This document shows positions 11,444-12,534 of a DNA stretch of 15,264 nucleotides, in pieces. The DNA is taken from the UHGV virus genome UHGV-0370902. One strand, given 5' to 3'. A model generated the notes under the pieces. It was not told the origin of the DNA and did no database searches. It saw only the letters and a list, made by a program, of their open reading frames with translations. Numbering within the stretch: the stretch's first letter is position 1; every line of letters starts with the position of its first letter. The position numbers and the translations under genes were made by a program. The DNA is from a virus.

Positions 11444-11785
11444 ATGGCGTTCACTGACCTTGAATATCAAGCGGTCAAAAAAGAAGTTCACCAATTCATT
11501 GAAAGCATAAGGCCGCCTGAACATATCCGCAATGAACTGGATATTGTTTATAGCATCAATGACCAAACGATAGATATCGGCGAACAGCGCCCCGTGTGGC
11601 AGGGCAACCCAGGTGAAACAAACATCCTGCCATCAGCAAGAATCAAGTACATACGTTCTCTGGATAGATGGAAAATCTATTGGATGCGGAAGGATATGAA
11701 ATGGCATCAGTACAGTACTGAACTTTCGCTGACTGATGCGCTTGAGCTTGTGCGTGCTGACCCGGATTGCTGCTTCTTCGGATGA
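11444..11785 (+). CDS. Hypothetical protein (113 aa), immunity-region cargo
   Basis: Strong GAGGAGGA RBS directly after cI; no family recognised by eye; occupies the position of rexA. Confidence 0.6.
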   Translation: MAFTDLEYQAVKKEVHQFIESIRPPEHIRNELDIVYSINDQTIDIGEQRPVWQGNPGETNILPSARIKYIRSLDRWKIYWMRKDMKWHQYSTELSLTDALELVRADPDCCFFG

Positions 11786-11917
11786 GTGAAGAGACATTTT
11801 GGTGATGGATGGTCGCAGAAGTGCGGCCTTTAATGTAATCGAAGAAAAGTAATCCTTGTAAAACTTGATTTGACTGTATTGTCACAAAGAAAGGAATCAA
11901 CGATCGTTTCTTGGGTC

Positions 11918-11974
11918 TTGATTTGTTTTGACGATCAAATTAGTATTGCCTCATCAACTGTATGAGGCTTTTTT
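11918..11974 (+). promoter_or_regulatory. Candidate sigma70 promoter plus hairpin/U-run abutting the orf177 start
   Basis: TTGATT (11918-11923), 17-bp spacer, TAGTAT (11941-11946); then GCCTCAT-CAACTGT-ATGAGGC (11948-11968) and TTTTTT immediately before ATG 11975. Confidence 0.35.
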
Positions 11975-12508
11975 ATGCAAACCAAAAGCTACACCATCAA
12001 AGCATTTCAGGACTTCTTACAGATGCTTCCTGAGCTTGGTATCGTCAATGATGCTACAGCCCGCAATCTCCGTGACTCTTCCCTGCGCCTTCTTACTGTT
12101 CTTGGGTCGGATTTCACCGATGCCGATATCCGTGATTATAGCGTTGCCAACTTAGCAAGTTCGTACGCAGACTCAGCAGAAAGCAAACCCTCTGAATCAT
12201 CTTTGCAGGCATACAAAAGCCGAATGCAAAGTGCTATTGATAAATTTATCTCCTACCAGAATGGTGAGATTAATGTGTCAGTTGGTGATGTAAATAAAAA
12301 AAAGGAGCGTAAAAAGATGGCACCTAAGAAGAAGGCGGTAGCTGACGTACAGGTTGGTGTAAAAACATTTGAACTGCCGATTCCATTGCGCGGAGATCTT
12401 ATCGTCACCATTGGCAACCTGCCTCGCGACCTGACAAAAGATGAAGCCAAGCGTATCAGTCTGATTGTGGAATCTTTTGCGATGATTGATGGCGGAACAA
12501 AAGAATAA
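11975..12508 (+). CDS. Hypothetical protein (177 aa) with central Lys-rich linker, immunity-region cargo
   Basis: ORF with a KKKERKKMAPKKK linker; no family recognised; occupies the position of rexB and is followed by a strong terminator. Confidence 0.6.
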   Translation: MQTKSYTIKAFQDFLQMLPELGIVNDATARNLRDSSLRLLTVLGSDFTDADIRDYSVANLASSYADSAESKPSESSLQAYKSRMQSAIDKFISYQNGEINVSVGDVNKKKERKKMAPKKKAVADVQVGVKTFELPIPLRGDLIVTIGNLPRDLTKDEAKRISLIVESFAMIDGGTKE

Positions 12509-12534
12509 AGCCCCGAGGGAACGGGGCTTTTTGG
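12509..12534 (+). terminator. Rho-independent terminator (timm-like, end of cI operon)
   Basis: AGCCCCG-AGGGAA-CGGGGCT followed by TTTTT, starting 1 nt after the orf177 stop. Confidence 0.7.

What the first reader, a model, noticed from the sequence alone, without database searches (positions are those of the whole stretch)
11444..12534. Two uncharacterised genes in the rexAB position of the cI operon, a prophage defence hotspot
Directly after cI, with a strong RBS, lie orf113 and orf177, closed by a strong terminator. This is where lambda carries rexA-rexB, and lysogen-expressed exclusion or abortive-infection genes commonly occupy that slot. I recognise neither protein; orf177 has a Lys-rich linker between two domains. 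Expression from PRM/PRE in the lysogen is implied by position.
Basis: inference. Interest (0 to 1): 0.65.

Follow-up and report, generated by a model that had tools for sequence, protein, structure and literature searches.

The report
Prophage cargo genes beside the repressor
The two genes are real and sit exactly where phage lambda keeps its rexAB exclusion genes, a slot that swaps cargo between prophages, but they are separate, uncharacterised modules unrelated to Rex, and an anti-phage role remains a reasonable untested guess.

Summary
Both ORFs exist as described: orf113 at 11444-11785 and orf177 at 11975-12508. They lie between a cI repressor and OL/PL-nutL-N, which is the lambda rexAB slot. 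All are under purifying selection (dN/dS 0.06-0.18).

They are not a gene pair.
- orf113 is a DUF3024 protein, PADLOC defence candidate PDC-S43. It follows at least seven repressor clusters, lambda cI among them. It is the fixed anchor in front of a very variable cassette.
- In 933W that cassette holds the Stk abortive-infection kinase. Here it is window 11830-12824.
- orf177 has a conserved sigma-70-like promoter, a hairpin covering its ribosome-binding site and its own terminator. It also occurs without DUF3024 in other cI-N slots, nin regions, prophage ends and satellite-like elements.
- orf177 combines an integrase core-binding-like helical domain, a basic disordered linker and a conserved 45-residue C-terminal motif. 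The family is large and unnamed.

None of the three proteins resembles RexA or RexB, and none has a membrane segment. The hotspot reading is supported. The operon and Rex-like readings are not. Function is untested.

The parts
10669..11406 (+). cI repressor (HTH + S24 peptidase). The likely start is ATG 10699. cro lies divergently at 10363-10608 on the minus strand.
   Evidence: Pfam Peptidase_S24 3.9e-18 and HTH_3. phrog_4 transcriptional repressor. The RefSeq CDS in L003 is 708 nt.
11407..11432 (+). Non-coding relic of the 3' end of a lambda-type cI gene (codes QWPEETFG* in lambda and VT2-Sakai). It marks the recombination joint between the cI allele and the DUF3024 module.
   Evidence: Alignment with 933W, VT2-Sakai and Oslo. 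Lambda cI 3' end read directly.
11433..11439 (+). Shine-Dalgarno sequence GAGGAGG of orf113, 4 nt before the ATG.
   Evidence: Sequence.
11444..11785 (+). orf113: DUF3024 protein, PADLOC candidate PDC-S43. A soluble helix / 5-strand sheet / helix fold. It is the conserved anchor gene directly after cI.
11811..11828 (+). Conserved hairpin GGTCGCAGAAGTGCGGCC that closes the DUF3024 module. It carries a T6 tail in VT2-Sakai and Oslo but a broken T-tract (TTTAATG) here and in 933W, so it is probably leaky. Homology with 933W ends at 11829.
11902..11936 (.). Two GATC sites (11902-11905 and 11933-11936) in repeats around the predicted -35 element. GATC enrichment here is a family-wide feature.
   Evidence: 55 GATC in 3900 nt upstream of 26 family genes, against 1 per 322 nt in the flanks.
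11918..11946 (+). Predicted sigma-70 promoter of orf177: TTGATT, 17 nt, TAGTAT (8 of 12 consensus positions). The implied start near A11953 lies inside the 5' arm of the next hairpin.
   Evidence: The -35 is invariant in position and sequence, and the -10 fits TAnnAT, in six diverged lineages. It falls below the scanner's 9-of-12 threshold. The start site is inferred.
11948..11974 (+). Hairpin GCCTCAT-CAACTGT-ATGAGGC plus T6, directly before the orf177 ATG. The 3' arm holds the Shine-Dalgarno GAGG. It is terminator-like for upstream transcripts.
   Evidence: terminator-like. Folding -10.1 kcal/mol and equivalents in Salmonella, L041 and others, with different outer pairs.
11975..12508 (+). orf177: integrase core-binding (SAM-like) fold at residues 1-100, a basic disordered linker at 101-131, and a conserved C-terminal motif KTFELPIPLRGDLIVTIGNLPRDLTKDEAKRIS.IVESFA.
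12510..12532 (.). Strong intrinsic terminator GCCCCG-AGGGAA-CGGGGC + T5. It is bidirectional in form.
12535..12681 (+). Conserved structured RNA, either the leader of orf44 or an sRNA. Its last helix pairs UCUCC with the orf44 Shine-Dalgarno sequence.
   Evidence: MFE -74.5 kcal/mol and z -6.7 for 12509-12690, a stretch that also includes the terminator hairpin. 10 of 28 consensus pairs show compensatory changes across 9 lineages. No Rfam family.
12682..12816 (+). orf44: a 44-aa hydrophilic protein (phrog_21154). It travels with many, but not all, orf177-family genes.
   Evidence: dN/dS 0.06-0.09. No TM segment.
12835..12859 (+). Terminator CCCGGC-TTCCGC-GCCGGG + T-run. It is homologous to the terminator annotated tM in 933W and marks the right end of the swapped cassette.
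   Evidence: Sequence. BLAST window 12825-12872 to 933W 4705-4750. 933W annotation.
12980..13062 (+). OL/PL region. It holds operator-like repeats shared with OR (10592-10668) and a plausible PL.
   Evidence: Repeat families D1, D13, I3 and I8. Sequence. The promoter is inferred.
13072..13696 (+). nutL and the N antiterminator gene (N at 13313-13696).
   Evidence: 99.4% identity to 933W nutL-N. Pfam N_peptide 2.1e-15.

Best explanation
The interval is the cargo slot of a lambdoid (Stx-phage-like) prophage immunity region, between cI and OL/PL-N. That is the place lambda uses for rexAB. It holds three units that evolve and move separately.

1. orf113 is a small soluble DUF3024 protein. It sits 37 nt after cI with a strong ribosome-binding site and no intervening terminator. 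It is therefore made from the cI (PRM/PRE) transcript in the lysogen. It is the constant first gene of the slot behind many different repressors.
2. orf177 is a self-contained moron.
   - A conserved sigma-70 promoter sits directly against a hairpin.
   - In transcripts arriving from upstream, that hairpin both terminates them and hides the orf177 ribosome-binding site.
   - Transcripts from orf177's own promoter would start inside the hairpin and lack the masking arm.
   - A strong terminator follows the gene.
   - The protein is a non-catalytic integrase core-binding-like helical domain, a basic flexible linker and a highly conserved short C-terminal motif. That layout suggests an adaptor that ties a variable target to a conserved partner.
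3. A structured leader RNA and a 44-aa gene follow, ending at the operon's tM terminator.

Shown here: gene reality, position, modularity, folds, and conservation of the RNA and promoter elements.
Inferred: the transcription pattern, and that at least one unit protects the lysogen against other phages. That role would be each unit acting on its own and by a mechanism unlike Rex.
For: Position.
- cI, OL/PL repeats, nutL and N flank the interval.
- Lambda cI itself is followed by DUF3024 in L085.

Modularity.
- 933W homology stops at 11829 and resumes at 12825.
- 104 DUF3024 loci show more than 15 different downstream cassettes behind at least seven different repressor clusters. The orf177 and Stk cassettes are each combined with several cI alleles.
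- Only 6 of the 227 genomes with this segment hold both genes.

Mobility of the orf177 family.
- It sits in the cI-N slot of five immunity types: window, VT2-Sakai, Oslo, L041 and L045.
- It also occurs in nin regions, at prophage ends next to pepN in Salmonella, and in PICI- or satellite-like elements.

Expression signals.
- orf113 has a strong SD and no terminator before it.
- In 933W the gene beyond DUF3024 (stk) is reported to be co-transcribed with cI (PMC3564112).
- TTGATT-17-TAnnAT plus an SD-containing hairpin is conserved in six lineages.

Defence association.
- The same slot holds Stk, an abortive-infection kinase active against HK97, rexAB and bstA.
- It also holds PDC-M63 and toxin-antitoxin-like cassettes.
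- orf113 matches PDC-S43. Distant DUF3024 genes lie next to a KAP NTPase and a putative AbiC.

Selection. dN/dS is 0.06-0.18.
Against: - No experiment or paper addresses either family. PDC-S43 is only a candidate label.
- orf177 has no hit in PADLOC.
- Its N-domain is neutral to acidic across the family (mean net charge -0.5), so DNA binding is not evident.
- The C-terminal domain model is poor (pLDDT 48-67).
- The orf177 promoter matches only 8 of 12 consensus positions and has no transcript data behind it.
- DUF3024 is pseudogenised in VT2-Sakai and absent in Oslo. orf177 is frameshifted in some prophages. Both are therefore dispensable.
- Some orf177 relatives sit in the nin region on the early lytic strand, which does not fit a purely lysogen-expressed role.
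Confidence: 0.55

Rival explanations
1. orf113 and orf177 form a RexAB-like two-component abortive-infection operon transcribed from PRM. One protein senses infection and the other kills the cell, for example by membrane depolarisation.
For: They share strand and slot with rexAB, and a terminator follows orf177.
Against: - There is no similarity to RexA or RexB: best BLASTP hit 11.5 bits, and no significant phmmer hit (best full-sequence E 0.17, score -0.9 bits, against a two-sequence target).
- There is no TM segment: maximum 19-residue hydropathy is 0.63, 0.81 and -0.36, against 2.39 for RexB.
- The two genes assort independently.
- A 189-nt spacer with hairpins and a separate promoter lies between them.
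Confidence: 0.04
2. The genes tune lysogeny rather than exclude other phages.
- orf113 would be a small protein-binding factor made with cI. It would modulate RecA-dependent repressor cleavage or SOS, as 434 Hex or plasmid PsiB do.
- orf177 would be a DNA-binding regulator that acts on GATC-containing operators, including its own.
For: - DUF3024 lies immediately after cleavable cI-type repressors of many specificities, whatever the cassette.
- 434 Hex sets a precedent for a PRM-encoded modulator of repressor cleavage.
- orf177 has an integrase core-binding-like fold.
- GATC-rich inverted repeats are conserved upstream of the family.
Against: - DUF3024 also occurs away from any repressor, in Stutzerimonas, Serratia and Oceanospirillaceae.
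- The orf177 N-domain is not basic.
- orf177 occurs in elements without a cI-type switch.
Confidence: 0.2
3. They are lysogenic-conversion or counter-defence cargo. They would alter host physiology, or neutralise host or rival defence systems, rather than block incoming phages.
For: - Moron architecture, and locations at prophage ends among virulence and fitness cargo in Salmonella Gifsy-like prophages.
- Presence in satellites and PICI-like elements.
Against: No specific homology supports this. The surrounding cassette repertoire points to defence and toxin-antitoxin-like content instead.
Confidence: 0.15
4. They are neutral hitchhikers or decaying remnants carried along by recombination at a mosaic junction.
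For: A pseudogenised DUF3024 in VT2-Sakai and frameshifted orf177 copies.
Against: - Purifying selection, with dN/dS 0.06-0.18 at dS up to more than 2.
- Very large families: 2908 DUF3024 clusters, and 420 orf177-family representatives at E<=1e-10.
- Conserved regulatory RNA and promoter elements.
Confidence: 0.05

Closest known systems
Phage lambda rexA-rexB
   Same: Same slot and strand: after cI, before a terminator and OL/PL-N. From textbook knowledge, not tested here, lambda rexB also has a promoter of its own (PLIT), as is inferred here for orf177.
   Different: There is no sequence similarity and no membrane protein. The genes here are independent modules, not an obligate pair.
Phage 933W cI-DUF3024-(153 aa)-stk-(54 aa) module (Stk abortive infection against HK97)
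   Same: The DUF3024 gene and its flanks are about 97% identical at the DNA level (window 11389-11829). The right-hand terminator (tM), nutL and N are homologous too. The cassette occupies exactly the same interval.
   Different: The cassette content is unrelated: orf177, an RNA and orf44 in place of the 153-aa protein, Stk and a 54-aa protein. The trailing small ORFs are not homologous either. The cI alleles differ, so the phages are heteroimmune.
BstA of Salmonella prophage BTP1
   Same: A single lysogen-expressed gene downstream of cI in the cI-N hotspot, with its own terminator and a DNA element at the start of the gene (aba). Its layout is an N-terminal nucleic-acid-binding-type domain plus a second domain (PMC8585504).
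   Different: No PADLOC match for orf177. The fold is core-binding-like, not KilA-N. orf177 is about half the size. No self-immunity element has been shown.
PADLOC phage-defence candidate PDC-S43 / Pfam DUF3024
   Same: orf113 matches both models end to end.
   Different: The label is a prediction only. No paper in the searchable library reports a phenotype.
Core-binding (N-terminal SAM-like) domain of tyrosine recombinases (PDB 3nrw; lambda Int CB 2oxo; IntI4; XerA)
   Different: There is no catalytic domain. The window protein has no significant sequence match. The domain is neutral to acidic rather than basic. It is followed by an unrelated conserved C-terminal motif.
Morons of lambdoid phages (promoter-gene-terminator inserts; concept from HK97/HK022 comparisons, recalled from the literature)
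   Same: Present or absent between otherwise homologous phages. Flanked by hairpins and terminators. Has a predicted promoter of its own. The same cassette sits at different genome positions.
   Different: The promoter directly abuts a hairpin that masks the ribosome-binding site. A second gene with a long structured leader travels with it.
Phage 434 Hex
   Same: An extra protein encoded on the PRM transcript next to the repressor.
   Different: Hex overlaps the repressor gene and has no known relation to DUF3024. The analogy is positional only.

Membership tests
RexAB abortive-infection system | A RexA homologue (279-aa cytoplasmic sensor) | tested here: not met
   BLASTP and phmmer of orf113, orf177 and orf44 against lambda RexA gave nothing significant; the best BLASTP hit scored 11.5 bits. 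No Pfam hit other than DUF3024.
RexAB abortive-infection system | A RexB homologue: a small polytopic membrane protein | tested here: not met
   No similarity to RexB. Maximum 19-residue Kyte-Doolittle hydropathy is 0.63, 0.81 and -0.36 for the three proteins, against 2.39 for RexB.
RexAB abortive-infection system | Location after cI, on the cI strand, before OL/PL and N | tested here: met
   Lambda cI itself is followed by DUF3024 in L085.
RexAB abortive-infection system | Exclusion of T4 rII and other phages, with loss of membrane potential | not testable with these tools
   Needs plaque and membrane-potential assays.
Pfam DUF3024 / PADLOC PDC-S43 (orf113) | Full-length match to the family model above its threshold | tested here: met
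   PF11225: 108.7 bits against a cut-off of 24.9, residues 4-113 of 113. PDLC05018: 7.2e-42, residues 1-113. phrog_3467: 4.5e-67.
Pfam DUF3024 / PADLOC PDC-S43 (orf113) | Demonstrated anti-phage activity | not testable with these tools
   No report found. The only mention lists it as a 'phage defense candidate'.
Tyrosine recombinase / integrase (orf177) | Core-binding (SAM-like) four-helix domain | tested here: met
Tyrosine recombinase / integrase (orf177) | C-terminal catalytic domain with the RKHRH-Y active site | tested here: not met
   The protein is 177 aa. Residues after 100 are a disordered linker and a 45-residue motif. No Phage_integrase hit.
Moron (autonomous promoter-gene-terminator insert) (orf177 cassette) | Present or absent between otherwise collinear phages, and found at different genome positions | tested here: met
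Moron (autonomous promoter-gene-terminator insert) (orf177 cassette) | Own terminator | tested here: met
   12510-12532. It is conserved in the Salmonella copy.
Moron (autonomous promoter-gene-terminator insert) (orf177 cassette) | Own promoter, active in the lysogen | tested here: inconclusive
   TTGATT-17-TAGTAT is conserved in six lineages. It matches only 8 of 12 consensus positions, is missed by the scanner and has no transcript data.
BstA-type prophage defence | BstA homology (KilA-N N-terminal domain) | tested here: not met
   No PADLOC or Pfam match for orf177. The fold is core-binding-like. BstA itself was not compared directly.
Stk / PD-T4-6 kinase defence | A Ser/Thr/Tyr kinase gene in the slot | tested here: not met
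   The window has no kinase. The Stk cassette of 933W is replaced by 11830-12824.

The most novel reading that the evidence does not exclude
The cassette 11830-12870 (promoter and insulator hairpin, orf177, structured RNA, orf44) may be a new, self-contained mobile anti-phage or phage-interference module of temperate phages and their satellites.
- Its output would be gated at the RNA level: both genes have their ribosome-binding sites locked in conserved structures.
- It might also be gated by the Dam-methylation state of GATC-rich operators.
- orf177 would act as an adaptor. Its fast-evolving integrase-core-binding-like domain would recognise a target specific to a phage or element. Its invariant C-terminal motif would engage a conserved host or phage factor.
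Probability: 0.15. Interest if true: 0.7.

Novelty: new variant of a known kind. Interest (0 to 1): 0.45.

Why it matters
The cI-N interval of lambdoid prophages is transcribed in the lysogen. It has already yielded RexAB, Stk and BstA.

This analysis shows that a DUF3024 gene is the fixed anchor of that slot behind many repressors, lambda cI included. That gives a simple handle for harvesting the variable cassettes behind it as candidate defence genes. More than 15 were seen here and most are unnamed.

It also defines the orf177 family, which is large and completely uncharacterised. The family is present in medically important Stx phages, for example VT2-Sakai orf22. It has an unusual architecture and tight RNA-level control.

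If either gene excludes other phages, that would bear on how Stx prophages compete and spread. If not, the work still corrects the idea that this is a Rex-like operon.

Tried and rejected
1. Antirepressor idea.
   - In Salmonella the orf177 homologue follows a LexA-box dinI gene, which recalls the Gifsy dinI-gfoA antirepressor operon.
   - The paper places that operon 1.3 kb from the replication genes and describes much smaller proteins (PMC3121763). The Salmonella copy here lies at the prophage end next to pepN. Dropped.
2. orf44 as E. coli Rac YdaG (same length, similar position). Only 10% identity. Rejected.
3. The 54-aa ORF after stk in 933W as an orf44 homologue. Not homologous.
4. Direct RexA/RexB similarity. 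None.
5. Searches that returned nothing usable:
   - PDB by sequence, single proteins and family profile;
   - NCBIfam and Pfam over 74 family members;
   - BFVD fold search, best E 0.19;
   - Rfam at gathering and E-value thresholds for 11780-13320.
6. Tools and sources that failed:
   - the afdb50 fold library was not available;
   - The search for related loci with the broad alignment A3 failed for lack of a conserved stretch, and A1 found only 3 loci in the species-representative genomes;
   - the 933W operator and Stk papers (PMC524894, PMID 21985444) are not held, so co-transcription of stk with cI is cited second-hand.
7. N-terminal extensions in longer family members looked like mis-called starts and gave no informative fusions.
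8. tblastn of orf44 against phage records was too insensitive to test its independence from orf177.
9. DNA binding by the orf177 N-domain was downgraded, because the domain is not basic.
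Full report
**What is in the window**

The window is the early region of a lambdoid, Stx-phage-like prophage of E. coli. The finding's interval is 99.7-99.8% identical to six complete E. coli genomes.

| Feature | Coordinates (strand) |
|---|---|
| Q antiterminator | 1203-1826 (-) |
| RusA | 2008-2370 (-) |
| two antirepressor-type genes | 2367-4167 (-) |
| C4/IsrK RNAs | 4221-4420 (-) |
| Gp49/HTH pair | 4342-5116 (+) |
| NinB | 5331-5789 (-) |
| intein-containing primase-helicase | 5849-8755 (-) |
| HTH_36 protein | 8986-9762 (-) |
| cII | 9925-10224 (-) |
| cro | 10363-10608 (-) |
| cI | 10669-11406 (+) |
| the finding | 11444-12534 (+) |
| N | 13313-13696 (+) |
| cIII thermoregulator RNA | 14696-14754 (+) |

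**Checking the observation**

- orf113 (11444-11785) and orf177 (11975-12508) exist as stated.
- cI ends 37 nt before orf113. GAGGAGG lies 4 nt before the orf113 ATG.
- A GC-rich hairpin with a T-run follows orf177 at 12510-12532.
- AlphaFold confirms two regions in orf177 joined by a disordered Lys-rich linker at residues 101-131.
- All ORFs are under purifying selection: dN/dS 0.08-0.18 for orf177 and 0.08-0.17 for orf113.
It is a full-length DUF3024 protein (Pfam 108.7 bits against a cut-off of 24.9) and matches PADLOC's candidate PDC-S43 (E 7e-42).

**Is this the rexAB position?** Yes.

- Repeats matching the OR operators lie at 12980-13062.
- From 13072 the sequence is 99% identical to nutL-N of 933W.
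- So the genes lie between cI and OL/PL on the cI strand, as rexA-rexB do in lambda.
- In IMG/VR locus L085, lambda cI itself (E 2e-155 to PDB 3bdn) is followed 10 nt later by DUF3024 and the Stk cassette.
- The 26 nt after the window's cI stop codon are a relic of the lambda-type cI C-terminal coding sequence, QWPEETFG*.

**Modularity**

Homology with 933W runs over window 11389-11829, which covers the cI end, DUF3024 and a hairpin. It then breaks, and resumes at 12825-12872 (the terminator annotated tM in 933W) and at 13072 onward. The exchanged cassette is therefore about 11830-12824. In 933W that interval holds a 153-aa gene, stk and a 54-aa gene.

- **Around DUF3024.** Across 104 loci, the gene upstream is a cI-type repressor from at least seven clusters, among them lambda cI and the cluster that covers most Stk-cassette loci (presumably 933W-type immunity). 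The downstream genes fall into more than 15 different cassettes.
- **Cassette content.** It includes Stk, PADLOC candidate pair PDC-M63A/B, a NYN-domain protein, a ParA-like ATPase and a HigB-like toxin with an HTH-ImmA protein. There are also several unnamed pairs with membrane proteins.
- **Shuffling.** The orf177 and Stk cassettes are each combined with several cI alleles.
- **Co-occurrence.** Only 6 of the 227 E. coli genomes with this DNA segment also have orf177.

Conversely, orf177 relatives occur without DUF3024 in several settings.

| Setting | Examples |
|---|---|
| directly after other cI genes | phage Oslo, L041, L045 |
| nin region of other lambdoids | L049-L061 |
| prophage end next to pepN, behind a LexA-box dinI | Salmonella |
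| next to an integrase | Leminorella |
| PICI- or satellite-like elements with D5/AAA_25 replication genes | L012-L017, L067 |

VT2-Sakai has a frameshifted DUF3024 followed by a 38%-identical orf177-family gene, orf22. The two ORFs of the finding are thus independent modules that happen to be neighbours.

**The orf177 cassette**

Upstream of orf177, six diverged lineages keep the same arrangement.

- A TTGATT element, a 17-nt spacer and TAnnAT. In the window this is 11918-11946.
- Immediately after it, a hairpin whose 3' arm contains the Shine-Dalgarno GAGG, followed by a U-run and the ATG (11948-11974; -10.1 kcal/mol; scored terminator-like).
- The outer pairs of the stem differ between lineages, while the CCUC/GAGG core is kept.
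- With standard spacing, transcription from this promoter would begin near A11953, inside the 5' arm. The gene's own mRNA would then lack the masking arm. Transcripts from cI-orf113 would be terminated or translationally silenced. This is inference; no transcript data were available.
- GATC is enriched 4.5-fold in the 150 nt upstream of family members (55 in 3900 nt against 1 per 322 nt in the flanks). It usually sits in inverted repeats around the -35.

Downstream of the orf177 terminator lie three more elements.

- A 145-nt region. The 12509-12690 stretch, which also includes the terminator hairpin, folds far better than shuffles (z -6.7).
  - 10 of 28 consensus pairs have compensatory changes across nine lineages.
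  - One helix pairs with the next gene's Shine-Dalgarno sequence.
  - No Rfam family matches.
- orf44 (12682-12816). It is a real gene (dN/dS 0.06-0.09). It accompanies orf177 relatives down to 34-44% identity in many lineages. It is absent from the nin and PICI subfamilies and from phage YP3.
- The tM-homologous terminator at 12835-12859.

**The proteins**

*orf113 / DUF3024*
- It models confidently (pLDDT 87.9) as a helix, a five-stranded antiparallel sheet and a helix.
- The family has 2908 clusters, all single-domain and about 115 aa.
- Distant members lie beside a KAP NTPase and integrase, or a NUDIX protein and a putative AbiC. Others are in ordinary chromosomal settings.

*orf177*
- It has no Pfam, NCBIfam, PADLOC or PDB sequence relative.
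- It belongs to a large family: 1090 representatives at E<=1e-3 and 420 at E<=1e-10. Apart from two short C-terminal fragments (62 and 69 aa), the listed hits are 156-264 aa and most are matched nearly end to end.
- The linker is basic in 81% of members.
- The most conserved part is a 45-residue C-terminal motif, and it is modelled poorly.

*Comparison with Rex*
- None of the three proteins has a membrane segment.
- None resembles RexA or RexB.

**What is known**

- The cI-N interval is a recognised mosaic hotspot that holds rexAB in lambda and bstA in BTP1 (PMC8585504).
- 933W stk is reported to be co-transcribed with cI and to abort HK97 infection. 434 Hex is another PRM-encoded accessory protein (PMC3564112).
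- No paper in the library mentions DUF3024 or gives a phenotype for PDC-S43. The VT2-Sakai gene is likewise unstudied.

**Verdict**

The positional and hotspot parts of the interpretation are well supported.

The implied two-gene, PRM-driven, Rex-like system is not. The region is a DUF3024 anchor gene made with cI, followed by an autonomous mobile cassette (orf177, a structured RNA and orf44).

An anti-phage role is the most likely function by association. It rests on context only, and regulatory or counter-defence roles are not excluded.

It is a reasonable experimental target of moderate interest. It is a new variant of a known kind of locus, not a new kind of system.

Noticed in passing
window 12535-12681: A conserved, highly structured RNA lies between the orf177 terminator and orf44. 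Folding z is -6.7 for 12509-12690, a stretch that includes the terminator hairpin. Ten of 28 consensus pairs show compensatory changes over 9 lineages. The last helix sequesters the orf44 Shine-Dalgarno sequence. No Rfam family matches.
   Followed up: partly
window 12682-12816: A 44-aa hydrophilic protein gene (phrog_21154) is under strong purifying selection (dN/dS 0.06-0.09). It travels with orf177-family genes in many lineages but not all. It is not related to Rac YdaG or to the 54-aa ORF after 933W stk.
   Followed up: partly
window 11895-11950 and the 150 nt upstream of 26 orf177-family genes (e.g. L004, L015, L041, L049): GATC (Dam) sites are 4.5-fold enriched. They usually sit as inverted repeats flanking the predicted -35. 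This suggests an operator, or methylation-sensitive control.
   Followed up: partly
window 11948-11974: A hairpin plus T6 directly abuts the orf177 start codon, with the ribosome-binding site in its 3' arm. The predicted promoter would start transcription inside the 5' arm. This would act as a compact insulator. The design is conserved in six lineages.
   Followed up: partly
window 11407-11432: A relic of the coding sequence for the lambda-type cI C-terminus (QWPEETFG*) sits after the stop codon of a different cI allele. It marks an old recombination joint.
   Followed up: yes
window 5849-8755 (-): A 968-aa Toprim/AAA_25 primase-helicase is interrupted by an intein with Hint and LAGLIDADG homing-endonuclease domains.
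   Followed up: partly
window 4221-4420 (-), with 2367-4167 (-): C4 antisense RNA, its a1/b1 target and IsrK (Rfam) lie next to two antirepressor-type genes (ORF6N + ANT, ORF6N + P22_AR_C). This is a P1/P7-style antirepressor control module inside a lambdoid prophage.
   Followed up: no
window 4342-5116 (+): A Gp49 (HigB-like) gene overlaps an HTH_3 gene. The arrangement looks like a toxin-antitoxin pair.
   Followed up: no
L075 (VT2-Sakai) 2972-3394 and 3501-4022: The reference Stx2 phage VT2-Sakai carries an unannotated, frameshifted DUF3024 pseudogene (82% DNA identity). It is followed by an orf177-family gene (orf22, 38% identity) and an unannotated orf44 homologue at 4196-4318.
   Followed up: yes
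L097, L087, L136 and others (IMG/VR), downstream of DUF3024: A third common cassette in E. coli prophages, seen in 12 loci, encodes a 162-aa protein and a 206-aa protein with a C-terminal membrane segment. Neither has a Pfam or PADLOC match.
   Followed up: partly
L088, L115, L145 (IMG/VR): Some prophages carry a frameshifted orf177, split into ORFs of 121 aa and 59-63 aa. The gene is therefore dispensable.
   Followed up: no
L004 5570-5600: In Salmonella the orf177-orf44 cassette sits behind a dinI-family gene with a consensus LexA box (CTGTATATTAATACAG). This is at the pepN end of a Gifsy-2-like prophage.
   Followed up: partly
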